This document shows positions 6,640 to 64,000 of a DNA stretch of 64,000 bases, piece by piece (the stretch's first letter is position 1; each line of letters begins with the position of its first letter). A program made the position numbers and the translations under genes. The notes beneath the pieces were generated by a model, which worked only from the letters and a program-made list of their open reading frames with translations, did no database searches and was not told where the DNA came from. This stretch comes from Vicugna vicugna (Eukaryota): the NCBI GenBank assembly GCA_013265495.1, contig MU060707.1, forward strand, positions 2,147,247 through 2,211,246, read 5' to 3'.

Positions 6640-9600
6640 AAGAGCAGAAGGCAATATGGAAAGGAATAGGAAGAAAGGTGAAACCTTGACCGCAGGCAGG
6701 GTGGGGGGTTTTTCAGGGATATGGGTGACCTATGATACATACAGGGATCTTAGGGACAATAGGAAAACATTTACCAGGAAGAAGGTCTTCTCTTGAAGTC
6801 AGACACGGTCAGCTCCACCTTGCTCAGTCACTTGGCTGACATGCGGAGGATGCCCTAGTACTTCATCCCATGGTGGGCTTTGTTCTACTCTGGAACGTGT
6901 TTCACCGTCTTGCCCAAAGGTGAAAGCTGAGTTCACAACCAAACGTGTGGTGGTAACACAAAGTTAGCTGCACTGTACTGTTCTCCATGGAGCATTCATC
7001 CAGTCCTTCCTGGGAGAAACCAGAACTTGAGGCTGAAACACAACTCAGGGCAGCAGTGCTGAATGACAAGAGTCTCCACAGACAGCTTCTGAGGTAGTTA
7101 GCACGCAATGGCCGAACTCCAATGCTCTACAACAGGAACTGTTCATTCTCCTCCTCACAGGGCTGTGGCTTGGTGGCAACAGCTCAGTTCAGGTGGGCTC
7201 CTCTGAGACCCAAATATGTATAATGGCCAAGTTCCACTGAAGATTTCCAAGCAGGGAGGTGCTTTGTTGGGTTGGCCCTGTTATGTCTTCAGCCTGCTCT
7301 GGGTGTGAGCAGCCCAATTATATGGAACAGTCAGACTCTGAACAAGAAGGAACTTGGTGACTCCATACCGTAAGAGAGGAGCCATATCCAAAAGGACTTG
7401 TTAGTTATGATTCTTTCCTATAAATGACTCTCAGTCCTGCTCACTGTGGTGCTCAGTTTTTGCGATTTGCCTGGACAGGAAAGCATTCCATCTTTCCCAA
7501 TTCACTTGCATCAGGACCAGGTGCAGGTACTCTATTTAGAGTGAACAGAGGTCCAGTCTGTTCTTGTATATTAAGCCAGGGACAGATGCCTGACTACTTG
7601 AAGCAAGTGCGCATGTGCTTCTTAAGTGGCTCCCTCTTACCAAAGGAAGCATAAGGAAGGGGTGTTGAAATGAAACACTTTCCCACTCTACCTCATCTAC
7701 CACAACTTGCTCCTCCCTTGAGTGGATAAGTATGCCTCCTTTCCTGCAGGAATGGTCAGCAGAGCCGTTCCAGCCTGCTTGAGTTTATGTTCATTTCTCT
7801 CAGCTTCTCTGGTATTTCTTTTTCTGAAAGGATAAACTAGAGATTGATTGAGGGGACCAAGAACTCAAGGGCCAAGTTACTCCCATACTCTGTATCTGAA
7901 AAGAGGCCATTATAGGTAAGAGTGTGGGTTCTTGAATTGCCCTGTTTTGTACCACAGCTTGTCTAGTCAAGGGTCGGAAAGTGGGATAACAAAGTACAGT
8001 CACCTCAGTTACTGTTTTTGTTCATCTGGAAGTATGTTAATTCGTTTTTGAAAGCTAATTTCATTGGTTAGAGAATTCTTGCTTGAGAGTCTTTAACATT
8101 TTGGATATACGGGTCTAATGCCTCCTTGTATTCATAGCTTCTGTTGAGAAGTCTGCTGTTAATCTTGTTGAGGCTCTCTCTTATGTGATGAACTGCTTTT
8201 CTCTTGATGCTTTTGAAACCTGGTAATATCTTTAAAGAGTTGGACTACGATGTGTTTAACTGTAAATCTCTGAACTTACCCTGTTAAGAGTTCATTGAGC
8301 TTCTTGACTCTGTCAAATGTTTGGTCAGTCATTCCTTTATATATTCTTTCTGCCTGTTTCTACCCTCTCCTTCTAAACTACCATTATATACATGCTGGTA
8401 TGCGTGTATATAATGGTAGTTTATATAGTGTCTGAGGTCTAATTTATTTTTTTTTTTCACCAGACTTTAATCTCAATCAGTCTATTTTCAAATTCGACTC
8501 ATTCTTCCAAGAGCTCACATCCACTATGGAGTCCTTCATAAGAATGTGTTATTGTACTTTTCAGCTCCAGAATCTGATTCTTTAAAAAAAATTCTATTTA
8601 TTGATATTCTCCACTTGAGACATTGTTCTCATACTTTTAATACTTTATGCATGATTTCCTTCTTTGAAGATATTTAAAATAGCTCATTTAGTTTTTTTTT
8701 TTTTATGGCAAGTACAAGTCTGGGTTTCCTCAGGACAATGTCTGACTGAATTTTTCCCTGTATGTGGGCATGTTTTGTATGCCTCACATTTGTTAAATTG
8801 GTTATTTTAAATGACGGGCAGCTCTGGGGATGATGGGCAACTCTGGGGGATTAAATTTCCTTAACCACAGGGTTTTTTTCTGGCTAATTAGTTTGTGAAT
8901 TTTCTAATTTCTGCAAGGTCTTAGTTCTTCATGTTTAGCCATTGAACCTTCTGTTTAGTTATCTTCGCTGACTAACCATTAGGTGCTGTGTATGTGTTGA
9001 ATATACCTTTAATTATCTGGCAGTTACAACTCTGCCTTAGACTTTACTCTGTACTGTGAGAGCCTCAAGGTCAGAAAACTAATTTCTTACTCCTTGCTAA
9101 GATCTCTTTATGGTATATGCACAGCCATGCACCTGTATGTGACCTTCTTAAGTCCCAGAAATAAACTGAAGATTTCAAAATCCCCTATGAATGTCACCTT
9201 CCAGCCTTTCCTTTCAAATTTTTGGTTAGTCTTTTATTTGCCCCATCTGGTAATGCTTTCTCAGACATCTGTTAAACAAACTTTTTTGACAATCAAACAG
9301 AGCTGGCTCACTGGAAACAACACTATTCCCTAAGTAAGTTCGACTAAAGAATCTCTGATAACAGGGCTTTGACCTGTCAGGTACATCCCAATAAAATAAC
9401 TACTAATTTCTGGAACAAAGGATTTTTATGAAGAGTCAAATTCAGTTCTGCCCTACAATGGCTGCTCTTTTTTACAGCTGCCTTTGTTGCAAGGCTATTG
9501 TTTTCAAGTCTGCTGCAAAGCTGTAGGGGGTGGGTATTGGAATAAGACAAGTTAAAATGTCACAATGCTCACTGTTTTTACTAAGTATTGGCCACATTTT

Positions 9601-11400
9601 TCTTGAATAAACTCTTTGGATTGTTGCATCTGGTTAACTTCCAGAGTACTGGAAAAGTTAACGTTGAGAATTTCTGTGATTGTACTCACTACTTTTATGT
9701 AGGAAGATTTTTGGAGATCCTTACCTTTCTGGTAATGTTTATTCCAGATGTGTTGACAATACAGGGGGAAGTTTTTCCAAAACTACTTTGCTTTGACTTC
9801 TGATCACAGGCCTCTGTGTGTAGGGGGGCGGGGTGTGACGCACATCATGAGACTGCTGGATAGAGCCTGGGCTGATGTTTTTCTTTCTCCTGACATGCCT
9901 GTTCCTTTGTCTCAATAAAGGGTTCTTCTTCATCTTAGAATACTTGGGGTGGTTCAAGGTGATGTTTATCATTATACGGTTGCCTGGAAGAAGTTTCCAT
10001 TCTAACTACCTCCATACAATTATCACTGGAATTTGATAACATGAGGAACACTGTCTGTTGTCCTGGGGCATTCGAGTCTTCCCTCAGAGTTCCAACACAC
10101 TTGGCTTTTTGATCAGAGGAGGCCAATTTCTCAAGGGATAGCATCTTACATTCACATAGAGGAAGCAAAAGGCTGAATACAGAAAGTTGATTAACTAGGT
10201 GTCCTCCATAGTGTTTTTAATGGATGCTTTTGGAAGAAATAGGGTTGTCCCAGATGAACTGAAGGCAGTGTCCAAAATAGTCAATGTCAGCATGTTCTCT
10301 GAGAAGGCAGGGGACCAGTCCAAGATTCACTGGAGCAGACAGAGTTCTGAAATAATTTCATTCACTATGGTCTCTTGATGCTGGGCTCAACTAACTTCAG
10401 GGAGGCAAAATTATGAGCCAGAAATGCTTCTCTTGAGAATGTAACCAGTGGATATAGCACATCCTCTTGGACCTCAGTGATAAGGTCACTGTGTTCTGAG
10501 GTGCTCTGTGCCCTGACTAACCCACAGAGGGAGTCAGATCATTTCAGCCTGGCTAGTTTTCATCTCAAGGGGTTTTGAGGTTGCACCATGATTTCTGAAG
10601 TTGCAATTGGCTTCTCATTTTAATTCTGAATTTCATTCTTCCTCAGAAATCAGAGCTCCAAATTGAGCCTTACTCATTGGTGGGCTATCTCAATGCTGAC
10701 TTGTTCACAGTTGCTATTAGTGGAGCTCCAGTCAAGATGGGTTGAAATGGGGAGTGGGCTTTCTGCCTGAAGCTTAATAACCTTTCTGAGATTTTGGTAA
10801 AAACCCAAGGGTTGAAAACCAGATTGAAGGAGTCTGCAGTGGGATGCAGATAACAAGTATTTTGCTGTTCTCCATGCTATGCCAAAAACACATCGGTACA
10901 GAGAATGTGGCATGGAACATGCCTAGCCTCTGCCACTCATTGCTCCCTGAAGGTTCTTCATTCAGGGGAAAGAGGGATGGGCTCAGTACCAGTGGAGTAA
11001 GGCTATCAAGATTCCATAGCTAAGCTCCCAACATCCATCCTCTTGTGATGCTGTCTTTTGCTCTCCTACAGAGATTCTTTAGACTAAGTATCTCATTCAG
11101 CCCTGCCTCCATTTCAACTTCCCCATCGTACCTGCCAGAAACAAATGTCTCTAATAATGGGATAATACTTCAGTTGCCTTGGATTCTAAGGATTGTTTTA
11201 CTTAAGTCTCATGTGTTTTAAATCTGCCATAAGGTGAATGTGCATTGTTTAACTAATTATATCTTCCTGAGAGATCCTGAGATTTTGAGATTTTGTTAGT
11301 CACTTTGGAAGAAATCTACAACTCATTTTTCCATTGGGGTGAAACACGGCTGCTCAGGTATTAAGTTTCTACACTTGGATGATTAGTTTAATACCAAGTG
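6640..11400 (-). pseudogene. Array unit U1 (contains an L1 insertion)
   Basis: 10430-10580 aligns with 24440-24580 and 32960-33110. Head motif at about 11061, acceptor-like site at 11132. The head lacks the ERVL LTR. Confidence 0.7.
8031..9570 (-). mobile_element. Old L1 fragment (L1MC/MD-type, 5'/ORF1 region)
   Basis: Reverse-complement L1 motifs such as ttctgttgagaagtctgctgttaatctt and ctcagctccagaatctg; T-rich. Confidence 0.75.
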
Positions 11401-12380
11401 GTACCTACCTCACTTTTAGTCCATGAGGAGAATTATAATCTGAGAACTTAATTTTTTCCCATTTATTATTTGAACTCTATCCTTCTTTGGGTTCTAGAAT
11501 AGTATTGATTTGAGCATTTTATTATTATTATTTTTTTTTTGGTGGGAAGAGTGTAATTCTTATATTCCTTCAACTCTTTCAGCTCTCATTACCTAGAGTG
11601 ATACCTGGTTCTTGTGTACTTTCTTCCCATTTAAAACGCCCATGCTTGAATCAAGGAGTTAAGAACAATGTGTTCTTAAACCCCTTCTCTTGCTTGCAGT
11701 CCTTGGCAGAACCTACTCTGGGAGGATTCCTGCAGTTGGAGTAGATACTCTCCTGATTCTCGAAGTGTACTGTTTCGAAAGAGATTTTACTTGGACTTTT
11801 GCCCACAGGGGTGCATACATATGGATGAAGGAGGGATGGGTTTTGACCCTGATCATCTGATCTCCTGCTGGACAAGCCTAGGTCCTCCTTTTATCCTTAT
11901 CTGCCTGACAATCCTGTTCCTTTTGTTTCAAAGTTCCGTCTCATCACAGAATATTTGAGATCATCCAGGTCAGGTTTTTCCCCTTCCCTGGAGGAGTGTT
12001 TTGCACCAGTTTACTGCAGGCAAGACCCAGTGGATGTTGATTACATAATATTTATTGTGGGGCTGAATCATCAGCGTCAACTCCCATACCTCTGGCTCTG
12101 ATTCAGGGTGTGTAGTTTTCTTCCATCATTATGGTGAAGGTCTGAAGACAGGAACCCATTAAGATTTGAGTCTGAGTTCTCTGCCAATAAGCCAGACTGG
12201 TTTTCAGTCTCTCAGTTGTTCTGAGGTGGAGCTACAACCCAGGTTGCCTGGAGGACTTGACACAGGCATGCCCTCTTTATGGAACTCCAGCTCTGGCATT
12301 CCTTACTGTGATGAGTGGGTGGAGGTGATAGTGAAAATCAGAGTAGGAACACATCTTGTAATCTTGCCATAAAGTTAGAG
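11400..12380 (-). pseudogene. Start of the next array unit, truncated at the ERV
   Basis: 11620-11900 aligns with 21630-21900 (cccatttaaaacgcc...gcagtccttggcag; aagcctaggtcct), at the same distance from the preceding head. Confidence 0.6.
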
Positions 12381-13675: not shown

Positions 13676-13679
13676 TACT

Positions 13680-14045
13680 CATATACCATATGATTGCACT
13701 TAAATGTGAAATCTTAAAGAAAAAAACTCATAGAGGACATATGGGTGTTCTGCAAGAGGCAGGCGACATGGTGTAAGCAAAACGGCTGATGATACAAACT
13801 TGCAGTTACAGACTATGAGATGCAAGGCTGTAATGTCCAGCGTGACAACTACAATTCACACTGTGTTGCATATTTGAAAGTTGCAAAGAGTAAACCTTAA
13901 AGTTCTCATCACAAGAAATTATGTAACTACAAATAGTGACAGGTGTTAACTAGACTTACTGTGATCATTACACAATATGTGAATATTGAATCATCAAGCT
14001 GTACTTCTGAAATATAATATTGTATGTTAATTATACCAAATATTT
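13680..14045 (+). mobile_element. L1 3' end, paralogous to 6280-6625
   Basis: Motifs gcatatttgaaagttgc, aaccttaaagttctcatcacaag, ttgaatcatcaagctgtac. The downstream flank matches that of the 5890-6625 L1. Confidence 0.8.
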
Positions 14046-14060
14046 TGAAGGAAAGGATGG

Positions 14061-14123
14061 AAAATTTTGACCACAGGGTGGAGCCCTTCAAAATTTTGAC
14101 CACAGGGTGGAGACCACAGGGTG
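14061..14123 (+). repeat. Short local direct repeats (AAAATTTTGACCACAGGGTGGAG twice plus a partial third copy)
   Basis: Copies start at 14061 and 14090 (29-bp period), with GACCACAGGGTG again at 14112. The paralogous site near 6685 has a single copy. Confidence 0.9.
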
Positions 14124-16200
14124 ACCCATCATATGTACAGGAATCTTTTGGGGACAAGAAAGATACATTTACCAGAAGGAGGGTTTTCTCTTGAAGTCAG
14201 ATATGGTCAACCCTGCCTTTCTCAGTCATTTGGCTGACACTTGGAGGGTGGTCTGGTTACTGTGCCCCAAGGTGGTCTTCTATTCTGGAATGTCTTTCAC
14301 TCTCTAGTCTTGCCCAAAGGTAAAAACCAAGTTCACAACCAAGTGTTAAGTTGTGTCATGTTAGCACAAAATTGGCTGCACTGCACTATTTATTATGGGA
14401 ATTTTATTACCTCATGCTGAGAATTTTATCTCCTCCTCCTGTCTGCCATGGGATGGGGAGTGTGGTCATAGTCTTCCAGTGGAACCTCAAAAGTTGAGGG
14501 TGTGTCCAAAGGTATTTATCAACCTCCCACCTCCGTAGTTTGTGCTGGGGGACTGGGGAGAGCTGTTTGTCTCATCTGCCTTTGTATTCTGGGACCGTGT
14601 TGATGACTTCATCCTGGCTGTAGAGTCCCTGAGGAGGGTCGAGTTAGATTACTCACTGTATTCAAGTGTAATCCTTTGTTTCTACAAAATGACGCATTTT
14701 TCAGCAAGTCCACTGCGTTTTTTCTCTCATAAAAGAAAGCAAGCTAAAATGCCTAATGGAAATGGTCACTTATCCAATAGTAGATCCTCAGACTAGTATT
14801 TTCAAGTGAAAGGCTCCTACTTTGAGGGCAAACCTTACCAGCCTAGATATCTGCTTGGGAAATCCCACCAGTCCTCTAAGTAACTAAAAACAACAAAAAC
14901 ATGTTTATGTGAAAAGCAAAACTTGATATTCAGCATTATATGGCAAATAATCCTCATTTATTCCCAGAATCAGTACTTTCAGTTGACGTACAAAATGAAG
15001 AACTAAAATGGTGGTATTTATCAGAAGAATCTTATTTCTGTATGAAAGGAGTCTGTTTAGCTGCCAATTTCATCCCCGAGGCATGGGTGAGAGAATGCTG
15101 TAGGCTCCCACCCGGTTTCTAGAGTATGTGAGGCGTTTGGCAGTGAAGTCTAGAGGGCTCATGTGCCAGGCTGTCTCGTCCGGCAGTTGGCTGTATTGGG
15201 TGCCCGCCTAACTTGAAACCAGCACTTGAGGATGAACCACAAGTCAGTGCAGCAGTGCTGAATGACTCAGAAGCTCTCTGTGAGAATCTTGTCAGTTAGC
15301 AACCAAGGCCCAAACCTCAGAGGTCTACCATAGGAACTGTGTATTCTTGTCCTCATAGGTCTGTGGGTTGGTGGGAGCAGTTCTGTTTGTGTGGGCTCCT
15401 CTGAGACCCAAATACGTTTAATGGCCAAATTCCACTGAGGATTTCCAAACAGGGAGGTGCTCTGTTGGGTTTGCCCTGTTCTCTTCTGCCAGCTCTGTGA
15501 GTGTGAGCAGCCCGATTACATGAAGCAGTCAGATGTCGAGTAAGGAGGAACTTGATGACCTTATACCGCAAGAGAGGAGACACATCCAAAAGAACTTGTT
15601 AGTTACAAGTCTTTTCTAGAAATGACCCTCAGTGTTGCTCACTGTGGTGCTCAGTTTTTACAGTTTGTCCGGACAGGAAAGCATTCTGTCTTTTCCACTT
15701 CAATTGTATCAGGACCAGGTACTCAGAGTGAACTGAAATCCAGTCTCTTGTGTATTGACTCAGATGCCTGACAACTTGAAGCAAGTGCCCGTGTGCTGCT
15801 TACGTGGCTCCCTCTTCCCAAAGGGAGCATAAGGAAGGGGTGTTGAAACGAAACACTGTTCCCACCTACCTCATCCACCACAACTTGCTCCTCCCCTGAG
15901 AGGATAACTATGCCTCCTTTCCTGCAGGAATGGTCGGCAGAGCCATTCCAGCCTGCTTGAGTTCGTGTTTATTCCTCTCAGCTTCTCTGGCATATCTTTC
16001 TGTGAAGGAATAAGCTAGAGATTGATTGAGGGGACCATCAAATCAAGGGCCAAGTTATCTCATTCTCTGTCTGAAAAGAGGCCATTGTGAGTAGAATGTG
16101 GGCTTTTGAATTGCCCTGTTTTGTACCAAAACTTGTCTAGTCAAGGATGGGAAAGTGGGATAAAATGGGACTGTCACCTCAGGTTTTCTTGATCTGCGAG

Positions 16201-16767
16201 TGTTACCAGGAAAAGGGAAATAAGAATTACCTCAGTTTTTAGTCCCCTAAAAAGAAAGAATTTTTAAGGAGAGACAGAAAGAGTGACATAGTACACTCCC
16301 AAGAATTGGGAGCGGGCCAGTCCAAGAGGAAAAAATGGTGCCACTCTTTTGTTTTTCCATCTTATATCTTGGCTTAGGGGTACTTTTGTGATTGATTGAT
16401 TGATTGATGACTCAGGTTCTTTGAGTGATCAAGTTGATTGACAGCTGAGGTTCCTTGTGCTCTGGCACGCCCATCCCCTTTTGGGCAGGTTTTTACCCAT
16501 GAAACAGAGAAACCTATGGGAGGGGGCTCAAACTGTAATGTTAATTACGTTATAATGAGCACTGGGTCAAGTTACACTGGGTCCTTCTCTTATACGCAGC
16601 TGCAGTGTTTTGGGTTTAACTGCCTTCTTTTGCTGGCCCTCATCTAGAGAAAGTAAAAATTTCTGGAGTCCCTTATCCTGAATGCAGACATACTGTTACT
16701 TTCTGGGTTGTTCCTTTCCCCTTCCTCTCCTCCTTCCCAGTGCTTATTTCTATCTAACTGCCTAGCA
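16201..16767 (-). mobile_element. Solo ERV1-class LTR
   Basis: TG...CA termini and 567 bp. Absent from the paralogous empty site ATCTGGAAGTATG at 8024-8036. The flanks cgag/gaag are compatible with a decayed 4-bp TSD. Internal (GATT)n at about 16390-16408. Confidence 0.85.
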
Positions 16768-18085
16768 GAAGTATGTTAATTCATTTTTTTAAGGCTAATT
16801 TCATTGGGTAAAGAATTCGTGGTTGAAAGTCTTTTTCCTTCAACATTTTCAATTTGTGGTCCTAATGCCTTCTGGTCTCCATGGCATCTGATGAGAAATC
16901 AGCTGTTAATCTTATTGAGGCTCTCTTGTATGTGATGAATGGCTTTTCTTTTCCTTCAAGGTTCTTTCAACAGTTGGACTATGTGTCTAGTTGTGAGTTT
17001 ATCCTACTTTGGATGGAGTTCACTGAGCTTCCTGGATATGTCAGATGTTTGTAACCAATCTGGGAGGTTACAGCCATTTCTTCAAATATCCTTTCTGCCC
17101 TTTTCTCTATCCTCTTCTGGTACCACCATATGGACATGCTGGTCTGCTTGATGCCAGCATCTACAGGTGTCTGAGGCTCTGTTACTTTCTTGCTGTTCTC
17201 ACTGTAACCTCAATTAAATTACTTCCACGTTATTAGATATGAGCTGGTGGAAGAGTGAATCAGCAACTGAGCTTTTCAAGTGAATTTGTTTTTGTATCTT
17301 GCAACTTATATTTCCATATCATTCTTTAAAAATTCTATTGATGTTTTCTACTTGATGAGACATTGTTCTCATATTTTACACATGCTTTCCTTTACTTTTT
17401 GAATGTATTTAAGATAGTAACTGATTTGAGTAATTTTTTTTAGTAGTAAGTACAACATCTAGATTTCCTCAGGGACAGTGTCTACTGACTGAATTCCTCC
17501 CTGTGTGGGGGCTTTATTTTTATGGTACGCCTCAACTTGTAGTTAAATTGGACACTTACAATGGGCAGCTTTGGGAATCATAGGCAGCTCTAGGGATTAG
17601 GTTGCTCTAATCCAGGGTTTGTTGTCGCTGTTTGCTTAGTGACCTTCAGGGAATTCTGCCAGGTCTTAATTCTTCACGTTCAGCCACTGAAGTCTCTGCT
17701 CAGTTATCTTAATGACCTAATGAGATGGCTGTTTCCTTAAATGTTTTGGACCAGTAAGACTTCCAGTTGTGGATGAGGTGCCTGTGTGTGCTGGGGCACA
17801 CCTTTAATTATCTGGCAGTTTTAACTCTTCCTTAGCCTTTATTCTCCACTGTGAGAGACTCAAGGTCAGCAAGAAATAAGAAGTTAGGCTTTCTCAGGTC
17901 TTTTTTATGGTGTGTGCTTAGCCACGCACCTGTGTGTGGCCCTCTAAAGTCCCAGAAATATGCTTGGAGCTTTTTTAGGTCTCCTATGAACATCTCTTTC
18001 CAGTCTTTTCAAGTTTTTTTAATCAATATTTTGTTTTCCCCATCTGGCAATGCTGCCTCAGAGATCAGCGTTAAACAACTGAGAT
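16768..18085 (-). mobile_element. Old L1 fragment, paralogous to 8031-9300
   Basis: Colinear with 8031-9300 and shares the same left junction (agtatgttaattc). Confidence 0.75.
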
Positions 18086-20078
18086 GCAGGCAACATGCAT
18101 GTTGGTATCCTTGAGGCTGTGCCCAAAACAAGTAGGCACAGAAATTGTGGCGTGGAATATGCCTAGCCTCTGCCACTCATTCATCCAGAAGAATGTCAAA
18201 CCTCCTAGTTTCTCCTTTCAGGAGAAAGAGGGATGGTCTCAGTACCTATGGAGTAAGCCTATCATGATTCCATAGCTGAACTCCCAACATTCATCCTCTT
18301 GTGATGCCCTGGGAGAACCCAGCCCCAGAGCATGAGCCACTATGCAGGGAAGAATTGCAGGGTGACCAGACGCTGTCAAGGAAGTTTCCTGAGTCCTGCT
18401 TCATCTGGTGAAAGAGCAGGCAGCAATTCAAGGTGAGAGGCATAAATCTGCCCCATCATCACCTAAGAATGTTCTCCTGTAAGCACTTTTTTGGCTTGGA
18501 CGTTAATCACTTCCAGACAGTTCTTTGGAGGCCCTAATGGTCAGCATTCTCTTAAAATGAGCAAGTGTCTCCTTTCAGTGGGGTTGAGATATTATGGCTC
18601 CCATAGCAGGCTACGTAGAAGTGTGTCAGTTCTGTGAATCTTAAATCTGCCCTCGTTCACTAACCCATAGCACTACATGCTAGAATCTCGTAAGGGGCAT
18701 GTGAATCCTTGGAGCCACATAGCTGATGGAATATCTGATGGAATCCTGACGTAGTCGCTACCCAGCTCCCAGTGAGCAGCTCTGCAGTGAGAGGCACTTT
18801 ATACCAAGTTTCACTTTAACATTTTCATCAGGTTGCTACAGACGTGCAGGGTCACTGCATAGCCTGGACCTGGCAAACTACTCGGCAGCCTAGTTCCGGA
18901 GGCTGAACTGCGAAGTCTACTTCTCATGCTTGCACTGTCACCCTGCACCCAACCCGCCTTCTGTCCCTAACTCCCTCTTGACTCGGGGAGTGGCTGCATA
19001 TGGGCTGCACCTGGAACCAAACCCTTCTGGGTTAGATGAGGAACAGCGGCCTCGTCAGTTTTAGCTGGGCTGTGTGTGACCCCAGTGTTCCTGTGACTCC
19101 TGGACGGTGGAGGAGATCACACAGTCCCCCAGTCACAGACCACCTCGTGAAGAGCAGAGGCCATTCCCTCGAGGTGAATGGCAGTTTCTCAGAATGGTCA
19201 GTGCATCTTGGGAGCTCACCCGGGGAGGGGAAGTTCTGAATACAGGAAGTGCAGAGTGGAGACTCTGACTTTCCTTGATGCCTTTGGTACTAACTGAAAC
19301 ACGTCACAGAAAGTCTGGGAACAGACCAGCACCTTCTCCAGGTAGGAAGGGCTCAGGGTTCCGAGGAGCAGGGTTCTGAGTCCGTCCCATCACCTGGGTG
19401 TTAGTATCCTGGGCTGCCAGGCCAGTGGGGCAAAGGGTGAGAAGGGGCTACCTTCTGTGATGTGCAAACAGCAGCTGAGCTTGCTTTCCCGGGATTCCCC
19501 TTTCAGTTGTCCTGGGTGAGGTTGTTAGAGAGCCTGGACCGTGGCTACTGTAGGAGAGGACAGCAGAGACTCAGGGCTCTTTGTAAGAGCCTGATAGGAA
19601 TCATACCACCTCTTCTGGATGCTCTGCTGAATACAGCTCCTGGTCCTTTCTGAAGTACAAGGCCTCTCATGGCGTCTTGGCCTCTTTGGGGGAGAAGTTG
19701 AGAAGGAGACCAGAAGTCTGAGACAATCCACTTAGTTGCCAGGGGAGAGGGGGCCCTTTAGGGAAACCTGTCTTTTTCTATTCTTTGGAATAATTTGTAC
19801 GTGAGTGATGCATTTCTGGCTGAACTGGTAGTAGAATCCTATAAGGAGGCTAACTGGGCCCAGAAAATTCTTTTGGGGGAGGTTTTTAATGGTGTATTTA
19901 ATTCCTTTCATAGAAATACGCTTACGTATTTGAAGTTTATTGAACAGGCTGAATAACACCCTCATCTGTAGGCTGGGATGGCATGATATGTTACTATTTT
20001 TATTGCCTTTCTTTCCTTGATCAGTGCTGCCAAGGAAAGAATATTTATGAGGCATATTATTTGAAGAAAAGCCTCGGT

Positions 20079-20940
20079 GAGTTAATAATAGATTCCTTTT
20101 GAATGGAGAACCTGAAATAAGAATTTCGGACAAGCACTGTATTCCTACTGCTTGTGTAACTAAAGGACCACCAGGTTAGGGGCCTAAGTGAAGGCAAACT
20201 TTGTCTTAGAGTTCTGGAGATCAAGAGTCTGAAATGGGTCTCTTGGGTAAAATCAAGGTGTTGGCAGGGTTTGTATTCCTTTTGGTGGTGCAAGTTTGTT
20301 TCCCTGCTTTATCCACCTTCTAAAAGACCCCAGGAGTCCTGGCTTGTGCTCAAAGTCTTGGACTCTCTCTCAACGTCAAAGTTGGCAGTGCATATTGAAA
20401 TCTGACTCTTACCTCATCTTACTTTGCTCTTGTGAATAACTGGGCTCATGTTGCATAATCCAGGTTAATTTCCTTGACTGAAGTTCAGCTGATCAGCAAA
20501 CCTAATTCCCTCTTTTGTCTTAACTCCCCCTTGTCATGTAGTGCCACATGTTTACAGGTCCCAAGGATTAAGATGTTAACAACTTTGAGGGGTGCTGTTA
20601 TCTGTCTGCTTCATGGTAGTTTTTTTGGAAGTGATCCCCAGGAAGCCCAGGGCAGTGGGGAACCTGACACCAGTCAAAGGGAGCAGCCCCTGAAGTGGTT
20701 ACTATTCAGCTGGTCACTCAGTCCCACTTGGCTCCCCGTAAAGTGCCATGAAGAATGCATCTCATAATTGTGCCTCCTGGGGTCAAAAGTCTGGCCATTT
20801 ACCCACTCACTCTATCTGCCATGTTCTTTGCAGTTACCCCTCCCCTGAGCCATCAGTTCCCCTGCACTGCTGAGCTAGGACTCTGTATGAAACTAAGGGG
20901 ACAAAGGGTCAGGGTGTAGCGCTGGGCAACCCAGTCCTTC
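20079..20940 (+). mobile_element. ERVL-class LTR (LTR33/LTR40-like) in U2, split by MLT1
   Basis: The start gagttaataatagattcc..ctgaaataag lies before the MLT1, and tttggaagtgatccccaggaagcccaggg resumes after it. Strand and subfamily assigned from memory. Confidence 0.6.
20138..20613 (-). mobile_element. MaLR LTR (MLT1D-like), nested about 60 bp inside an ERVL LTR
   Basis: Begins tgtattcctactgctt..gtaac and contains aaatcaaggtgttggcaggg and cagctgatcagcaaacctaattcc, matching reverse-complement MLT1 motifs. Confidence 0.8.
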
Positions 20941-29035: not shown

Positions 29036-29080
29036 GAAAGAAAAAAAAAAAAAAAAAGAAAGAAAGAAAGAAAAAAAAAG
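29036..29080 (+). repeat. Poly(A)/(GAAA)n tract
   Basis: Directly visible A-run with GAAA repeats inside U4. Confidence 0.95.
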
Positions 29081-42880: not shown

Positions 42881-42889
42881 AAGAGTTGC

Positions 42890-49782: not shown

Positions 49783-50596
49783 AGCAGGAAGTTTGCACCC
49801 AGATGTCTTTGAAATTTCTTTCGATGCCTTAGGCACTACTAGAACGTTGTTGTCCCAGACAGAATGAGGACAGAGCTCATGATAGTCAGCAGTAAACTTT
49901 CTGCTTTGCTGGATTCTGTCTGAAGAAATGGAACAGAATTCTGTAATTGTTCCAGTCACCACAATGTTACCCTCCCTGGACTTCACTGTGTCCTATGAGA
50001 GAAAAAAGTGAGTGCAGTGTATTTTCTGGGTTGAGATATCTGCTACGCTTGTACCTTCCTTTCCAGACTTAACCCTTTACTGGTTGTGCTGGGTGACATT
50101 TTTCTGGGGAATGTGTTTCAGAAGTCCTGGAGGATGGGCACCATGGGAGAAAATCCAGAACTTTGAGAATGTGTGTCAGACAGACATGCTAGCAGGAAGT
50201 TTGCACCCAGATGTCTTTGAAATTCCTTTCTACGCCTTAGGCACCACTAGAACGTTGTTGTCCCAGACAGAATGAGGACAGAGCTCATGATAGTCAGCAG
50301 TACTTTCTGCTCTGGGTTGCTGGATTCTGTCTGAAGAAATGGAACAGAATTCTGTAACTGTTCCAGTCACCACAATGTTACCTTCCCTGGACTTCACTGT
50401 ATCCTATGAGAGAAAAAAGTGACTGCAGTGTATTTTCTGGGTTGAGATGTCTGCTATGCTTGTACCTTCCTTTCCAGACTTAACCCTTTACTGGTTGTGC
50501 TGGGTGACATTTTTCTGGGGAATGTGTTTCAGAAGTCCTGGAGGATGGGCACCATGGGAGAAAATCCAGAACTTTGAGAATGTGTGTCAGACAGAC
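49783..50596. repeat. Tandem duplication, 408-bp period, slightly diverged
   Basis: agcaggaagtttgcaccc starts at 49783 and 50191. About ten substitutions and one small indel separate the copies. Confidence 0.95.
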
Positions 50597-51178
50597 GTTT
50601 ATAGGTGCATGATGACAGGAGTTTCTTTTCTTGGGGCTACTCTGCTGACCATCAGCAAATGTGAAGCAGGAACCTCTCAGGCCAGCTCTGAGCAGAATTG
50701 TTCCCATCACATCTTAGCTTTTCTGGCAGTAAAGTTTGAGGAGCTCCCAGTAGACCTGAGGGTCCACACTGTTCCAGTCACCACAATGTTACCTTCCCTG
50801 GACTTCACTGTATCCTATGAGAGAAAAAAGTGACTGCAGTGTATTTTCTGGGTTGAGATGTCTGCTATGCTTGTACCTTCCTTTCCAGACTTAACCCTTT
50901 ACTGGTTGTGCTGGGTGACATTTTTCTGGGGAATGTGTTTCAGAAGTCCTGGAGGATGGGCACCATGGGAGAAAATCCAGAACTTTGAGAATGTGTGTCA
51001 GACAGACGTTTATAGGTGCATGATGACAGGAGTTTCTTTTCTTGGGGCTACTCTGCTGACCATCAGCAAATGTGAAGCAGGAACCTCTCAGGCCAGCTCT
51101 GAGCAGAATTGTTCCCATCACATCTTAGCTTTTCTGGCAGTAAAGTTTGAGGAGCTCCCAGTAGACCTGAGGGTCCAC
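50357..51178. repeat. Tandem duplication, 411-bp period, apparently identical
   Basis: actgttccagtcaccacaatg starts at 50357 and 50768. The ORF track shows identical peptides at 50480/50891 and identical N-termini at 50447/50858. Confidence 0.95.
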
Positions 51179-53320
51179 TTGATTCTCAGTACACTGGACT
51201 CGTGTTGACCTCACTACTGAGTCTGGGCTATACATGGAGCAGGGGTATAATCCTCTCAGCCTGGACTGAGTTCCCCTGGGAAAGAGTGATTCCCACCATG
51301 AAAATATCTGGATTTGAATTCGAGTCCTCCTGTCTGTTCTGAATTTTCTTCCCCCCTGAGAGTGTAGAACTAACTTAACAACGTTTCAGTATTTTCATGG
51401 TGGGCAGCGATAATAGTCTCATCGAGTTAAGCTTGTATCAGTGCTGCCAGCTGAGTCTAAGTGTTTTTTTTTCTTTATTTTGCTGACATTTCTTTTACCA
51501 TCTCAAAATTAAATGTCCAAGGATGGATGTTAGAAGTCTAGGTTTGCTCAGGCTGTTTTATCGTCACTACTGGTCCCTTGTTTTGATTCCTATTGCTGAT
51601 GACTGGTCATCATGATGTTTAGACCAGTGCCCTGTCAGAATGGACATTGAATTCTTCCTTAGCATAGGCTGAAGGATATCCTTGAGTCAAAATTAGCTGA
51701 AGTATGAACATACCTATCTTAAATCTCTGGCAGTAGAAGATAGGACTTCTGTTTCTCTGTGCAAAGCTGGCATTGGCATGGAGACGCCAAGTGTCTACAG
51801 AGGAAGGTAAGACAGTACGGTGCTCATTTCTGGTCCCTCAAGTCATCATGAACCCACATCTCTAGGAGTCGTCTCCTGAAACGCTTATGCTGGGCACCTG
51901 AGGATCTGGTACCCGACATACAAGTCATTACCACGGAAACACTCAGGAAAAATAGAAAAATGACTTTATCGTTTAAAGGTGAAAAAATCTCTAATTGATG
52001 AGAATACTTTTGAGGCTTCTCTCCAAAACACACAGTCCTGATCTTCACAATCAAGAGTTCAGCGTAGGGGGAGCCTCTTCCTGTTAACTATTGAGATGAC
52101 AGCACTGCTCTTACTGTTTTCCCAGCAGTGAGCATCTGGGGACCCTGTGGCCAGGAAGAGTGGGTCTGTTGGAAGAGTAAAATGATACCATTTGTGCTGG
52201 ACACACCCCTGGATCCATCCACTGGACCTTAGGATTATAACCCTTTACATTTCTTGGGATGTGACATCAGATAGAGGTCTCATGCTAGTGTTGAATATGA
52301 CATGTCATGTCACTGGGTGTGTCCCACACCGCCATACTGAAGACGGATGCTGGCTCCTAGAAGGTGGGACACTGGGGAGAGATGTGACCTGGGATGCTGG
52401 GATCATCTTCCATGGGAGGGTAGAATTGCATAAGTTGATCTGTCCCAGAAAATGGAGACCTAACAAGGTCCAGTGATCCACAGCCATGTTTGCTGGCCAT
52501 CCTGAGGTGGAGAATCCCATGGTGAATTCCAAATAGGGGCAGCAGCCCCTCCAGGCACCAGAATGCGTAGGCATCGCAGGGTCACAGGCATCAGAAATGC
52601 CAGGACCCACAGGGCAAGTGCTTGCCACTGTTCTGTTCTTCCTCCTCTGAAACAGTCTGGCCATGGCTTCTGACCGCTGCCCAATTCTGTGATACTGCTT
52701 CTTCGTTGAATGCAATAGGGCTTGGTTTACTTGTCTATCAGGGTCAAGGTCGAGAGTTTCTCCAGGTATACAGTCTGGGTATGTACGCTTGATGAGCACA
52801 TCTTTCAATACTGTCAGCAGAGCCAAAGGGAGCCCACAGGGGCTGCATCGTCCTTACGACTGAAAAGACTTCTTTGGGTATACAGTGGTTCAGTTAGCGG
52901 GGTTACTTCTAAACTGCTCTGTCTGCTTCAATTTCCTGTGACATGTGGCCTCTGAAGTCACCACCTTGTGTAGGCCACATCTTTCCTCAGCTGGTTTCCC
53001 TTTGAGGGCAGAAAGCGTGTTTTTTACCCCTATTGCTGGCTTGAGTAAAGATAATATTAGCAGTGGGCAGGATTCTAAGATGGCCCCAGGATCCCTGCGC
53101 CCTAGGGGTAAACTTTAGTAATTTCAGTCTTTGAGTTTAAACTTCAAATATAGAAGCACAAATGCCTTCAATGAACGCTGTTTATACCGTTTCAATACTA
53201 TAGGTTTGGAGGCTAAGAAGACATGTTTCTCATTTTATGACAGTTTTCTTCTTGATCAGGGCTGCCAGGGGAAGAATATTTATGAATCCTATTTTTGTGA
53301 AGTATAAAAGCAACCTCAGT

Positions 53321-54424: not shown

Positions 54425-55120
54425 AACCTCCCTCCCCCACACACACAATGGATGAGAATGGGCTGTTTCAAGATGTATAATTAGGTATATTTCATATGGT
54501 ATATTTTCCTTCCTGCCGTCTGGGTTACTCAGGTCTTCTCCCAAGGCTTGAACAACTTGGGATCTCATATCTCTGGCACCTCACACTGTTTTAAGATCAT
54601 GTTCCAATGATGAATTCATAGGTCATGGACTCATATCTTACTGTGCTTGTACCTTCAAGTGCAGCCCTCCTTAGTCTGTGGGCTCATTTTGCATGGGTTT
54701 TGCTTACTCTTCCCAAAAATATAGGTGGGGGAATGGATCATCTCACAACATGTGTCAGATCTCAGTCCTGTTACCCCTCCCCCCCCACACACACAATGGA
54801 TGAGAATGGACTGTTTCAGGATGTATAATTAGGTATATTTCATATGGTATATTTTCCTTCCTGCCGTCTGGGTTACTCAGGTCTTCTCCCAAGGCTTGAA
54901 CAACTTGGGATCTCATATCTCTGGCACCTCACACTGTTTTAAGATCATGTTCCAATGATGAATTCATAGGTCATGGACTCATATCTTACTGTGCTTGTAC
55001 CTTCAAGTGCAGCCCTCCTTAGTCTGTGGGCTCATTTTGCATGGGTTTTGCTTACTCTTCCCAAAAATATAGGTGGGGGAATGGATCATCTCACAACATG
55101 TGTCAGATCTCAGTCCTGTT
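54425..55120. repeat. Tandem duplication, 348-bp period, nearly identical
   Basis: cacacacaatggatgagaatgg recurs 348 bp apart (ORF starts 54625 and 54973). Two substitutions and a C-run length difference are visible. Confidence 0.95.
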
Positions 55121-57590: not shown

Positions 57591-60351
57591 TTTTCATTTT
57601 TTAGTTTTGTTAGGTAAAAGTGTTACAATTTGACCGCACATATACAGTATATTGCATGTAAATACATATATACAATATACTGTACATATTTTTAAAAAAT
57701 TTACCTATATGTACTTTTTATTGTTTCTAAGAACATTTAGTGCTTTAGCTTTTTAAACTTATATAGTTATCAAAGGAATAAAGCCAACCACAAAATAAGA
57801 ATTAATTTAAAAAGATACATACACCACACTCTCAATAGCAACATTCCTTATAATTGCCAAGATATGGAAGCTCTTAAGTGCACATCAACAGATGAATGGA
57901 TAAAGAAGATGCAGCATACGCATGTAATGGAATACAGCTCACCCATAAGAAGGGTATTTTGCCACTTGCAGCCATGCATTCACTTTTTTTCTTTTAAGTT
58001 CAAAAATCAGAATTTTATAACTAGCATAAACATTTCCATTGCATCAAAACCAACAAAATACCCAGAAATAAACTTAACCAAGGAAGTCACATATACTCCC
58101 CAAACTGTAAAACATTGATGAAGGAAACTGAAGATGATACAAAGAAATGGAAAGATATCTTGTGCTCTGGGATTGGAAGAATCAACATTATCAAAATGGC
58201 CACACTACCCAAAGTAATCCACAGATCCATCCTAACCCCCATCAAAATACTCGCGACATTCCTCACAGAACTAGAACAATTCCAAAATTTATAAGGAACC
58301 ACAAAAGACCCTGAACAGCCAAAGCAATCTTTTGTAGGTCTCTTTTTATTTCCTTCTCTCTTTTTGTTCTCTTTTCTTATGGTTTGACTAGAGAAAGTCT
58401 TTAACATGTTGTAAAGCTGGTTTGGTGGTGCTGAAATCTTTCAGCTTTTGTTTATCTGTAAAACTTTTGTTTTCTCCATCAAATCTGAATGAGAGCCTTG
58501 CTTAATAGAGTATCCTTGGTTATAAGTTTTCCTCTTTCTCACTTTGAATATATCGTGCTACTCTCTTCTGGCCTCTAGAATTTCTGCTGAAAAATGAGCT
58601 GATAACCTTATGGGAGTTCCCTTGTATGTTACTTGTTGCTTTTCTCTTGCTAATTTTAATATTTTCTCCTTATCCTTAATTTTTGTCAACTTGATTACTA
58701 TGTGCCTCAGTGTGTTCCTCTTTGGGTTGATCCTCTGTGGTACTCTATACGCTTCTTAAACTTGGGTGACTGTTTCCCTTCCCAGGTTGGAGAAGTTTCC
58801 AGTTATTCTCTCCAAAATTTTTCTCAGGTCCTTTCTCTCTCTCTTCTCTTTCTGGGACCCCCATAATATGGATATTAGCGTGCTTCATGTTGTGCCAGAG
58901 TTCTCTTAAACTATCCTCATTTCTTTTCATTCTTTTTTTCTTTTTTCTGTTCTGCAGTAGTGATTTCCATAGAAGAATCTGTCTTCTAACTCACTGATCC
59001 ATTCTTCTGCCTCATTTAGTCTATTCCTGGTTCCTTCTGTCATGTTATTCATTATCTTCAACTTTGTTTGGGTATTCTTTATATTTTCCAACTCTTTGCT
59101 AAAACCTTCAATCTGTGCATCTATACTCCTCTTTCGTTCTCTGAACATCTTTGTCGTCATTACTTTAAACGCTTTCCCAGATAAATTGCATATCTCCTCA
59201 TCACTTATTTCTTCTCCTGGGATTTTATCTTGTGCCTTGGCCTGGGAGGTATTCCTCTGCTGCCTCATATTGTCTAAATTCCTCTGCCATATTGTCTATC
59301 TTTCTATTTGTATTTTTAGGTAATTAGTTATGTTTCTTGACCTTGGAGAGGTGGCCCTCTGTGGGACATGTCCTATGTGTCCCAGCAGGACACTCTTCTC
59401 TTGTCACCCAAGGGCCAGGGTCCAGCTGGTCCCAGTGTAGAGTCTGGCCTGTGTTTGTGGATTCCTTCCACAGGCTTTGGGATTATTGTTTTCTTATTTC
59501 TGGTATCTGCCCCCTCCCCTATGGTGGACAAGGTAGGACTAGAGGCTTATGCAGGTTTCCTGGCAGGAGGAACCAGTGCCTGCCCATTGCTGAGTGAAGC
59601 TTTGTCCTGGACCTCTGGTGGGTAGGGCTGTGTCTAGAGGCATTTGTGGCTTAGGACATCTGCTGATGGGTGGGGCTGTGTTCCCACCCTGTATATTGTT
59701 TGGCCTGAGGCTTCCCAACAGGCTGTTGGGTGGGGCCAAGTCTTGGTGCTAATGATCTAGTCAAGATGTCAGCCTTCAGGAAAGCCTATGTAGATGGACA
59801 CTCCTGGAATGTCTGCCACCAGCTTTTATGTCCCCTCGGTGAGCCACAGCTGTCCTTTACGTCCCCAGGAGACCTTCCAAAACCAGCAGGCAGGTCTGGC
59901 CCAGATTCCTGTGAAATCACTGCCTCTGCCCTTGGATTTGGTGCACATGAGATTCTGTGTATGCTTCCCAAGAGAATGAAATCTGTTTCCCCCAGTCCTA
60001 TGGGGCTTCTGGAGATAAGCCCCATTGGCCTTCAAAACCAGATCTCCTGGGATCTCCTCCTCTCAATGCTGGAACCCTGGGCTGGAGAGCCTGATGTGGG
60101 GCTTAGAATGCTCACTTCTGTGGGGGGGCCTCTGTGACTTAATTGTCCCTCAGCTTGTGGGCTGGCCACCTGGTGGGTATGGGGTCCAATTATATTGCAA
60201 GCACGCCTCTCCTACCATTTCACTGTGGTTCCCTCCTTGTGTTTCCAGTTGAAGAAGATCTTTCTTGCTAGGCTCCAGTCTTTTTTTCCATGGTTGTTTA
60301 GCAGTTGTGATTTTGTTATAGCCAGGAGGAGAGACGAGCTCGTGGTCCTCG
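57591..60351 (-). mobile_element. Rearranged L1: 5'UTR plus ORF1 (minus), inverted ORF2/3' pieces (plus, about 57780-58330), A-rich tail
   Basis: ORF1p peptides (MRQQRNTSQAK...NRLNEAEEWISELEDR; NEDSLRELWHNMKHANIHIMGVPE). The 5'UTR runs to about 60351. Diverged 15-bp TSD gccataagtattttt (57576-57590) / gctgtagatattttt (60352-60366), 11 of 15 matching with all mismatches transitions. Array sequence resumes colinearly after it. Confidence 0.9.
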
Positions 60352-63300
60352 GCTGTAGATATTTTTGACATCCTCTCTCCTACCACACCGTCTAACTTTC
60401 ATGAAAATTTCATAGTTTAGGAGGAGAAAATTGGCTTTTGTGGAAGGAAGTATTGGTAAAGAGATCTGCTTTCTTTTTCCCACAAGCACTACTCTTCCAC
60501 TGAGGAGGACTTGGGGCCTATAGCCCTTCCCCTAAATCTTAGACAATCATTGAAAGAATTCTGTAAAGATTGGACCTGTCTGGAAGATGGGATAATTGGT
60601 GTGTGTTTTTTTGCCAGTTTGTTCTTTGATTTTTGCTAAATTCTGTGCTGATCCAGGAGAAGTTCTTAGAGGTAGCTGCCCTGAGGAAGGGGCTGCGGAG
60701 GATCTTGCATGCATGTAACTTACATGGGCACATGAGTTCCTCATGAGTCAGCTTGAGTAAAGGTGATACACCTGTTTCATTTCTGTTAGCTGTTATCATA
60801 CAGCAATGCACTGGGATTGAATATAAGCAAAAGAAATGACTGACCTTCAGGATTATGCCCTTGTAAAGCAAGTGACCTCCCCTCATCCTCCATTATCCTT
60901 GTTATTGACTGAGGCTAAGGTTGAACCCCTCTAGGGATGGCAGAGCTAAAGCAGAAGAGCGTCCCTCGAGCATTCTTGCTGGTGCATTTTCCAAGAGCTG
61001 TCCACTGGATTAGGATATCCTAGCAAAGAGCTGATTTGTATACGTGAACCTGAGCTACATATGATAGGAGAAGATGGTCCTGGAGGTGGAGTAGGGTGCT
61101 TGTAACCTACAGAGCAGAGAAACATACCATATTTTGTGTATGTTGTTCCCTCCCAAGCACCCATCCTTTATCATGTACCCCCAAATATGTTTTTCAGACA
61201 CCATTAGCCAGCTGGAATTGAAGGCATCAGAGTTGTTAGAAAGAGAAAGAGTCATATCCAGGGGAGAGATTTCATCTCGCCTATGCTGGGAATGGAGGCT
61301 GTGTTGCCTTGTTTGCTAGAAGAAGTTGTATTTGAACAATTTCCAACTTTTTCTTTCAAAATAGCATAATCTGTCCTGATATTCTACCATCTCCAGCTCC
61401 TGTTATTTCAAAGGAAGCCATGCTGTCTTCCCATTTGAAACTCCCATGATTGCCTCAAAAGGGAGACTGAGGGGTTTTTTCCACCACTTTCCTTATGGGC
61501 AAATCTCAGCAAAGCCTAAATCCAGAGCATGGCCTGACTAGACCCTGCACTGATATTCAAACGGGAATCCTTTCAAAAATATGTTTCTTTGACTTCTGTC
61601 CAGAAGTCTGTGGGTGGGGAAGGAGGTAGGTGGTGATGCCCAACACCTGAGCCCTTGATGGATAAAACCTTGACCTTTTACTTTTGTCTAGCCAATATTG
61701 TTGTTCCTACATCTTAAAAAAGGGAAACTTCCTTCCCTGCACACTTGTGATGTCCAGGTGAGCTGCCTTACTTTACAGCTTCCCTGGAAGAGTTGAGTAT
61801 GGGTGCACCAACTTATACGCAGACAATTCTCAGTGAATGTTAACAAATGAGCAGTATTTTTGTGGGTCTGGGTCAATTAGATCTTCTCTCCCAGACACTC
61901 ATACCCATGGCTCTTGAGTCACAGGCTCTCAGCCTTCCTTGCCGTGTGTTCCCTTTGTTCTGGGTGGCAAAGTCACAGGAAATTCCGGGACTCATGGGGC
62001 AAATGTTTGCTGCAGTTCTGTATAATGGGGCCACCACCTTCGCCACTGGTATGATCTGGTTGGTGCTTCTGCTGTCAGCCGTTGCTGAATTCTGTGCTAC
62101 TGTTTTCTGCATTTGATGTAGCAGTGCTTGAACTGCTTGCTCATCAAGGTTGAGTTGAGGCAGTTTCTTCAGGTAACCTAGTCTGGTGTGTGGGCTTGCC
62201 GAGAACAGCCTCCGATGCTCTTCAGCCGTAAAGAATGTGCAGCCCAGAGGGACACACTTCGTCGACAGGGTTGCTTTGCAAGTACAGTAGTTCAACCGAC
62301 TGGCTCACTTCTAAGTTTCTGTCTGCTTCAATTTACTGTTTCATGTGGACTTTTGAATTTAGCATCTTCTGATAGCCCGCATCTTGCCTTACTTTTTTCC
62401 CCTTAGGTTGCAGATAGTGTAGTTTTAACCATCACTGGCTAAATAAAGATGATCTTAGAGGGAACACATGCTGTTCACATGCAAAATTCTAAGGTGGCCC
62501 CAGGATCTCTGCCACTGATGTTATGACCACTATTAGTATGGCAAGGGTGAGTTTTTCAGATGTATTTAGGGTCCTGTATCAGTGGCTTCACCTGAATAAG
62601 ATCACCCTGGTTGGGTCAGACTATGCTGACTTTAGTCACTCGTATAGCAAGAGATTAGCACTAGAGACAAACCACACATTTTCCTTTCCACGTTGATGTA
62701 GCTGTGTACTATTACTGACACGACCTTGGACTGTTACCTGTTCATGAATACCCGCTCCCCTAAAGTAGGACGTGGAGAATTTTATGTACGTAGTGTAGAT
62801 TGGTGACTATGAAGAACTGACTTTCCAGGATTCTTCCCTGAAAGATAGTTTATGATGGTCACCATCCATCTGTGCCTCCAAATTTGAAAAGAAATGCTGG
62901 TAAAGAGAGCAAGTTGTATCTTTGAAGACAATATCCGTGAGGAGACCTAGTTCCTATTTTACTGCTGCACAGAAATCCCCACCAAATTCAGAGGAGGGGT
63001 ATATTCCCTACCCGAAATCCTAGCAGACTAGCTTAGAGGGACATGTTTAAATAAATAGGCATGTCTGCATGGAGGGAACAGAGGGCTGTTTTATTCTTCA
63101 GTGGGTTTCTCCTTGGGCCTCCTTTTCCCCAAGCTTCCCTGTGCTGCCCTACCTAGAAGGTGATGAGTAGAAATCAGGCTCACCTACAGAGGGAGCCACG
63201 CTAAAGGAAGACTAGTCCCTTAACTGATGGGGTCATGGAGGTTGCTCAAGAGTCAGCTTGTGCATCATTGATGTCCCTGTTGGTTGGGGTCAGGTAAATA

Positions 63301-64000
63301 AGGAATCATCATGAGGTGTGCGTTAAGTGCTGTCGTAGCTTCAAGATCCTTCCCTTTAAAAGGAGATGGTCTCTTCTTAAACTTCCCATGTCTTTTTGTT
63401 GACTAAGCCAGGTGTGACCTCCCTAGGAATGACAGTGCAGAAGCAGAGGCGTGTGCCTCACTGCTGTGCTGTGTTGACAACAAGGTTTAGAAATGTGCCG
63501 TGGATCCCCACAGGCTCTGGAGAAACGCCTACCTGTTTCAGGAAAATGTCAGTACTCTTGGGTCTTCCTTTCAGTAGGAAAGGCATAGATCAGTCCAACA
63601 GCAGCAAAGCTTATCTGATTCCATAGCTGAAGTCTCTGAGATACAGCCATTGATAATGCCTTTCCCCCGCTGAGAAACAGATTCCTTACACCTCTAATTC
63701 CATCCCTTATCCTCATCTATGCTTTCTGCCAGGATCAAATATCTTAGTATTCTGATTAATGGAGATTAATTTGCTGTTGGTGGATTCTATGAGTGGTTTT
63801 GCTTTATCTTTCCAAATACTATTTTTGATCCAGGAATATAACACTATGTTATTATCTGTGGTCAAGTCAGATATAGAATATTACTCTTCAAAGTGATCCC
63901 AGAAAGCCCAGTGAAAGGAGGGGTGAATCAGAAGTGGGGGGAGGGAATGGACATTGAAAGGGGCAGTATCAGCTGGATACCTGTAGTGGACTAGGGTTTA

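What the first reader, a model, noticed from the sequence alone, without database searches (positions are those of the whole stretch)
6640..63900. Window-spanning fossil tandem array of an unidentified large-exon gene-like unit
Seen: about 57 kb that looks like unique DNA resolves into roughly 9-11 same-orientation copies of one unit, recognised by multiple landmark motifs recurring in a fixed order (coordinates in features). Copies are about 65-75% identical by eye and all are broken by stops and frameshifts. The unit is not a TE I recognise: it has no RT, integrase or transposase motifs and no terminal repeats. Inference: it is the remnant of a gene family with one multi-kb exon encoding a P/S/Q/K-rich, probably disordered protein, architecturally like testis large-exon genes, which I cannot name. 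Standard annotation would miss it because no ORF exceeds about 170 aa.
Basis: partly seen in the sequence, partly recalled or inferred. Interest (0 to 1): 0.85.

Follow-up and report, generated by a model that had tools for sequence, protein, structure and literature searches.

The report
Ancient decayed 5-kb tandem duplication array
A stretch of mammalian DNA about 5 kb long was copied head-to-tail roughly ten times very long ago and has decayed since; the repeats are real, but nothing found shows that they came from a large-exon testis gene or that they make a protein today.

Summary
The array is real. Self-comparison resolves 9749-63983 into same-strand, colinear pieces of a ~5-kb unit (58 of 58 strong matches on one strand; 40.5 of 57.3 kb covered; reversed-sequence control empty), and it runs off the right edge. 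Corrections: 6249-9339/13680-18133 is a separate two-copy block; most copies are partial mosaics (8-12 pieces per segment); identity is 51-72% rather than 65-75%; the longest frame is 182 aa. Trees show nested duplications, long tips (0.2-0.4) and near-uniform site rates (gamma shape 6.7-13.7), with no codon periodicity, so the copies diverged like neutral DNA. The P/S/Q/K richness equals that of shuffled DNA. Pfam, Rfam, PDB, ESM Atlas and a 1.8-billion-protein profile search named nothing, but these tests are weak at this divergence. Two segments are somewhat stop-poor on the minus strand, so a coding ancestor stays open. Parts of the unit look like old solo LTRs (recalled, no Dfam available). 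Best reading: a fossil tandem segmental-duplication array about as old as placental mammals or older. It could lie inside a long plus-strand germline transcript (piRNA-cluster-like), which is untested.

The parts
9749..12287 (-). Leftmost array fragments (segments e, a, a, d, e)
   Evidence: profile matches E 5e-49 to 4e-206
18074..22280 (-). Mosaic copy (d fragment, w, a, x, d, e); its w-a-x block is sister to 37901-39600
   Evidence: a_19197 with a_38631 at 100/100 support
22717..29698 (-). Long colinear run (a2, a, b, c, e, a), interrupted at 24915-25521
24915..25521 (.). Insertion present in this copy only; resembles a MER44/Tigger7-type DNA transposon (recalled, unverified)
   Evidence: uncovered by profiles; sequence read
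30742..37381 (-). Array copies (d, e fragment, a2, a, b, c, b, c, d, e)
37901..43033 (-). Mosaic copies (w, a, x, v, c, e, a2)
43581..51601 (-). Most complete run (a2, a, b, c, d, e, a); one period is about 4.96 kb
47791..48230 (-). Solo-LTR-like piece inside segment d (ERVL LTR16-type end, recalled; 5' boundary approximate). Homologous pieces lie near 20.6k, 30.8k and 53.8k. No primer-binding site is apparent after its end.
   Evidence: raw copies. The 13-nt end motif matches exactly once and is not above chance by itself.
49783..51178 (.). Recent 411-bp tandem triplication inside segment a
   Evidence: TRF; 96-100% identity
51562..57471 (-). Array copies (b, v, x, d, e, a, b, c fragment); N gap at 56579-56715
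54427..55120 (.). Recent 348-bp tandem duplication
   Evidence: TRF; 98.6% identity
57601..60194 (.). LINE-1 insertion splitting the array; ORF2 piece at 58052-58330 on plus, ORF1-like frame on minus (the latter recalled)
   Evidence: PDB match to LINE-1 ORF2p, E 3.5e-17; ORF1-like frame not matched
60195..63983 (-). Array copies (c, e, v, c, d, d fragment); the array continues past the window edge
6249..9339 (.). Separate two-copy block, copy 1 (L1-like piece, 1-kb slow piece, L1-like piece; L1 identity recalled)
13680..18133 (.). Separate two-copy block, copy 2
7015..8030 (.). 1-kb piece (partner 15214-16200) diverging more slowly than its flanks
   Evidence: K2P 0.21+-0.02 against 0.37-0.42; peak 89-90% identity at 7616-7815

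Best explanation
A fossil tandem segmental-duplication array. A ~5-kb piece of ancestral mammalian DNA was amplified head-to-tail in nested rounds, with deletions that made mosaic copies. Shown: nested subfamilies and blocks duplicated together. Inferred: unequal crossing-over or non-allelic recombination as the mechanism. Long duplications stopped at K2P 0.37-0.49 between sister copies, roughly 85-110 My at a recalled neutral rate of about 2.2e-9 per site per year; the deepest splits are at 0.80-0.85. Since then the copies have drifted like neutral DNA, taking only a few insertions and two recent short tandem duplications. The unit was probably already largely non-coding when most copies arose, since it carries shared LTR-like relics (recalled). 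It makes no protein now. Whether part of the core (segments a and a2, minus strand) once coded is unresolved.
For: One-strand colinear repeats with an empty control. Well-supported nested clades, such as a_23810/32321/44725 and a_19197/38631 at 100/100, with median tips 0.26-0.33. Gamma shape 6.7-13.7, meaning almost equal rates at all sites. No period-3 signal in 8 of 8 segments, and no position consistently the most variable. About 4 gap openings per 100 columns. Amino-acid make-up explained by base composition. No family or named protein found. LINE-1 ORF2 confirms a mammalian-type genome.
Against: Segments a and a2 are stop-poor on the minus strand (0 of 30 non-coding simulations reach them), although the plus strand of a is also low, so the null is imperfect. 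Minus-strand frames of >=70 aa number 58 against 48+-6 in local shuffles (10 of 150 shuffles reach this; 33 of 150 with trinucleotide shuffles). Few later insertions and a steady T>A skew on plus (30 of 32 windows) may reflect transcription or selection. The 1-kb piece is slower than its flanks. The TE names and the rate are recalled.
Confidence: 0.55

Rival explanations
1. One reading: unprocessed pseudogenes of a birth-and-death family with one multi-kb exon on the minus strand (SPATA31/FAM205-like architecture), whose copies were genes for part of their history.
For: A 5-kb unit fits a compact large-exon gene; SPATA31 exon 4 is the longest coding exon and the family expands by segmental duplication (PMC5338094, passages). 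Stop-poor minus paths in a and a2, and a plus-strand ORF disfavoured. The minus strand is A-rich. A fast-evolving disordered protein would leave little rate heterogeneity (inference).
Against: No Pfam match above a curated cut-off in 297 stop-free frames and 28 read-through frames. No named hit for a 162-position profile of the most open frame among 1.84 billion proteins. P/S/Q/K is not enriched. Segments b and c are not stop-poor. An LTR-like piece lies inside the unit (recalled).
Confidence: 0.27
2. Present-day role, compatible with either origin: the array lies in a long plus-strand germline transcript, such as a pachytene piRNA precursor or lncRNA exon, and its sequence is raw material for small RNAs rather than constrained itself.
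For: T>A on plus in 30 of 32 windows, still 0.10 in the copies after about 30% substitution. Few later insertions: 37,916 of 45,910 bases of 18074-63983 are unit DNA. Most retroelement-like pieces lie on minus (recalled identities). Conserved pachytene clusters keep position and long first exons but not sequence (PMC7782496, abstract and section 13). They overlap duplications (PMC9925758, passages) and hold antisense pseudogene fragments (bioRxiv 2025.11.05.686807, passages).
Against: No expression, synteny or promoter data. Substitution asymmetry is not significant (A>G/T>C 1.15, 95% interval 0.98-1.34). No MYB-type motif (recalled patterns) in the slow 1-kb piece. An intron of a host gene, or an A-rich ancestor, gives the same skew.
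Confidence: 0.2
3. The unit is itself an old LTR retroelement (LTR plus about 4.5 kb of internal DNA) arranged in tandem.
For: An LTR-like end lies within the unit on the A-rich strand (recalled identity). Pfam also missed the window's own gag-like and L1 frames, so the negative result is weak.
Against: No primer-binding site after the LTR-like end in the raw copies. The LTR-like piece is cut short or missing in 4 of 8 d pieces. A profile of the core hit only 1 of 1.84 billion proteins, unlike what a dispersed high-copy element should give (inference).
Confidence: 0.07

Closest known systems
Old tandem segmental duplications and unprocessed-pseudogene arrays of mammals (general knowledge)
   Same: Head-to-tail kb-scale copies, nested subfamilies, mosaic breakpoints, co-duplicated repeat fragments, neutral-like decay.
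   Different: At 51-72% identity it is far below the >1 kb, >90% identity definition of segmental duplications quoted in PMC9925758, so standard tracks would miss it; no parent gene was found.
SPATA31 (FAM75)/FAM205-type testis large-exon families
   Same: Unit size is compatible; expansion by local duplication (PMC5338094, passages).
   Different: No family domain detected, no long ORF, no short 5' exons identified, composition not distinctive.
Eutherian-conserved pachytene piRNA clusters
   Same: Long insertion-poor tract of about eutherian age, strand skew, duplicated and possibly pseudogene-like content.
   Different: No small-RNA, transcript, A-MYB promoter or synteny evidence; the passages read do not describe ancient 5-kb tandem units.
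ERVL/MaLR solo LTRs (LTR16- and MLT1-type; recalled)
   Same: Short pieces in segments d and x look like them.
   Different: They make up only a small part of the unit; identity not checked against Dfam.

Membership tests
Tandem duplication array | kb-scale colinear same-strand copies beyond chance | tested here: met
Segmental duplication (strict definition) | >1 kb at >90% identity | tested here: not met
   long pairs 51-72%; only 348- and 411-bp units exceed 90%
SPATA31/FAM205-type genes | FAM75-type domain | tested here: inconclusive
   no Pfam hit, but Pfam also missed a frame that PDB confirmed as L1 ORF2
SPATA31/FAM205-type genes | one multi-kb coding exon | tested here: inconclusive
   stop-path simulation cannot separate a minus-strand coding ancestor from a non-coding one
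SPATA31/FAM205-type genes | P/S/Q/K-rich protein composition | tested here: not met
   equals dinucleotide shuffles (all three frames pooled, which dilutes a true frame)
Gene family under selection while duplicating | codon periodicity and rate heterogeneity among copies | tested here: not met
LTR retroelement | RT/integrase/gag homology in the unit | tested here: inconclusive
   none found; low sensitivity
LTR retroelement | primer-binding site after the LTR | tested here: not met
   read by eye in 4 raw copies
LTR retroelement | match to a Dfam/Repbase family | not testable with these tools
   no repeat library available
Pachytene piRNA cluster | abundant 1U testis piRNAs from a long exon | not testable with these tools
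   no expression data
Pachytene piRNA cluster | A-MYB-bound promoter | tested here: inconclusive
   no MYB-type motif in the 1-kb slow piece; a promoter could lie outside the window
miRNA/snoRNA/tRNA arrays | Rfam or tRNA match in each unit | tested here: not met
   0 Rfam matches at gathering score; 0 tRNA genes

The most novel reading that the evidence does not exclude
The array is the fossil of an unnamed stem-eutherian germline gene family (coding on the minus strand in segments a and a2) that died about 100 My ago. It is now read antisense as part of a long, conserved pachytene piRNA precursor, which would show how such clusters arise from dead tandem gene arrays.
Probability: 0.08. Interest if true: 0.7.

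Novelty: new member of a known kind. Interest (0 to 1): 0.3.

Why it matters
As a neutral fossil it matters little. It shows that unique-looking, insertion-poor mammalian DNA can be an ancient tandem array below the reach of duplication tracks, and it gives a datable record of early duplications. It would matter more if the core were traced to a lost gene, or if the locus proved to be a pachytene piRNA cluster, because the origin of the non-transposon sequence in those clusters could then be tested directly.

Tried and rejected
Pfam: 150 of 180 minus-strand stop-free frames of >=55 aa beyond position 9300, 147 mostly plus-strand frames and 28 read-through frames gave nothing above a curated cut-off. 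Rfam: 0 at gathering score in the whole window; 4 sub-threshold hits at the AT-rich palindrome near 8370. ESM Atlas: no usable hit for 2 of 2 frames. Word-seeded protein searches: none of 6732 and none of 899 candidates passed, which is weak evidence. The full HMMER profile search of one minus frame of segment a gave 1 hit at E 2.4e-4; it is an unnamed public-assembly record that may be human, so it stays unchecked and is not used as evidence. The other frames and segments were not searched this way. Motif resemblances seen by eye to Tudor and RapGAP domains got no support in PDB; those to cadherin and ERVL gag were not tested beyond Pfam. The L1 ORF2-like fragment in segment x (recalled) was not confirmed; one search used a wrong frame. 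A first stop-path test was discarded because its column shuffle lowered both strands. Local-aligner identities were discarded because shuffled pairs also gave 65-70%. A codon-usage path and splice-site scores, both with recalled matrices, gave no coherent gene model. The 1-kb piece holds a shared 82-codon open frame with in-frame indels, but dN/dS is 0.71 and dS is also low; folding was z -0.3 and -2.6 in the two copies. Literature searches for such arrays in piRNA clusters returned 0, 1 unrelated, 0 and 15 general papers; since the locus is unidentified this does not show it is unpublished. No mammalian genome, repeat library or expression set could be searched; the viral and metagenome contig collections stayed unchecked.
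Full report
Setting. The window is mammalian-type DNA: CpG observed/expected is 0.19, and a frame at 58052-58330 matches LINE-1 ORF2p in the PDB at E 3.5e-17. The species and locus were not identified.

Observation. Self-BLAST gave 67 forward and 3 reverse off-diagonal matches, and tiled nhmmer showed a dense web of same-strand matches from 9.7 kb to the right edge. I divided the unit into five core segments, in minus-strand order d-c-b-a-e, and four less common ones (a2, v, w, x). Their profiles cover 40,542 of 57,261 bases of the reported interval; the reversed window gave nothing better than E 0.3. All 58 strong matches are on one strand. Each core segment occurs 8-12 times, many of them partial, and segment-a anchors mostly lie 3.7-6.3 kb apart. 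So about ten copies of a ~5-kb unit is a fair description, but the copies are mosaics. The array starts at 9749, not 6640. The stretch 6249-9339 is instead duplicated at 13680-18133 as a separate block.

Divergence and history. Twelve selected array pairs are 51-72% identical (K2P 0.37-0.85); the only young events are a 411-bp triplication and a 348-bp duplication. Trees of segments a, b, c and e show well-supported nested subfamilies with median tips of 0.26-0.33. With a recalled neutral rate of about 2.2e-9 per site per year, the last long duplications date to roughly 85-110 My and the first are considerably older; this is an inference, and alignment error inflates the deep values. One copy carries an insertion at 24915-25521 that resembles a MER44-type transposon, and another is split by an L1 (the MER44 name is recalled).

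Was it a gene? Site rates are nearly uniform (gamma shape 6.7-13.7) and there is no period-3 signal in 8 of 8 segments, so protein-level selection left no trace during divergence. These tests do not see an ORF that died before or at duplication. The P/S/Q/K richness is what the A-rich strand gives by chance. Simulations of a stop-avoiding path have low power. Segments a and a2 are more open on the minus strand than 30 of 30 non-coding simulations; e, c and b are not; the combined result for a, e, c and b fits a minus-strand coding ancestor (z +0.5) only slightly better than a non-coding one (z -1.2), and disfavours a plus-strand one (z -2.4). Long minus-strand frames are in weak excess, which fades under a trinucleotide null. 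Pfam, PDB, the ESM Atlas, a word-seeded search and a full profile search of one frame named nothing. Pfam also missed the confirmed L1 frame, so these negatives are weak.

Repeat relics in the unit. By recall, part of segment d resembles an ERVL solo LTR and segment x a MaLR LTR followed by an L1 fragment. The support here is thin: the raw copies show a polyA-signal-like motif and one exact LTR-type end; a recalled MaLR end motif matched 2 of 3 x copies against 0.28 expected matches; the L1 fragment was not confirmed. If these names are right, the duplicated unit was ordinary repeat-containing DNA rather than one continuous exon. No primer-binding site follows the LTR-like end, which argues against a tandem provirus.

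Present-day role. T exceeds A on the plus strand in 30 of 32 windows, and later insertions are few. This suits a long plus-strand germline transcript, and conserved pachytene piRNA clusters are long-exon loci whose position but not sequence is kept (PMC7782496, abstract and section 13). They overlap duplications (PMC9925758, passages) and can hold antisense pseudogene fragments (bioRxiv 2025.11.05.686807, passages; its supplements were not seen). However, the substitution asymmetry is not significant, and an intron or an A-rich ancestor would look the same. Passages of PMC6461890 and PMC11615739 did not describe such arrays.

Side finding. In the two-copy block, 7015-8030 and 15214-16200 differ by K2P 0.21 against 0.37-0.42 for their flanks. 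A shared 82-codon frame shows dN/dS 0.71 with low dS and no homologue, and there is no Rfam match. This points to DNA-level constraint or an old conversion tract.

Verdict. Interest 0.3.

Noticed in passing
window 7015-8030 and 15214-16200: 1-kb duplicated piece about half as diverged as its flanks, peaking at 89-90% near 7616-7815, with an AG...GT-bounded exon-like stretch on minus and a shared 82-codon open frame lacking a protein-level selection signal
   Followed up: partly
window 12300-13690: Single-copy gag-like and leader fragment of an old endogenous retrovirus on the minus strand, broken by stops (recalled resemblance; Pfam found nothing)
   Followed up: partly
window 57601-60194: LINE-1 with an ORF1-like part on minus and an ORF2 piece on plus, suggesting an inverted insertion
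   Followed up: partly
window 1500-4600: LTR-like and ERVL-internal-like fragments in the left flank (recalled, unverified)
   Followed up: no
window 9700-64000: No SINE was recognised by eye in the stretches read, unusual for DNA this old; may reflect a SINE-poor lineage
   Followed up: no
window 49783-51178 and 54427-55120: Two recent short tandem duplications; one pair is 100% identical, so it could be an assembly artefact
   Followed up: partly
window 56579-56715: 137-base N gap inside a copy of segment b
   Followed up: no
window 29699-30741, 37382-37900, 40800-41241, 43034-43580: Single-copy stretches between array pieces, unassigned
   Followed up: no
window 8369-8428: AT-rich palindrome giving sub-threshold miRNA-family matches
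   Followed up: yes
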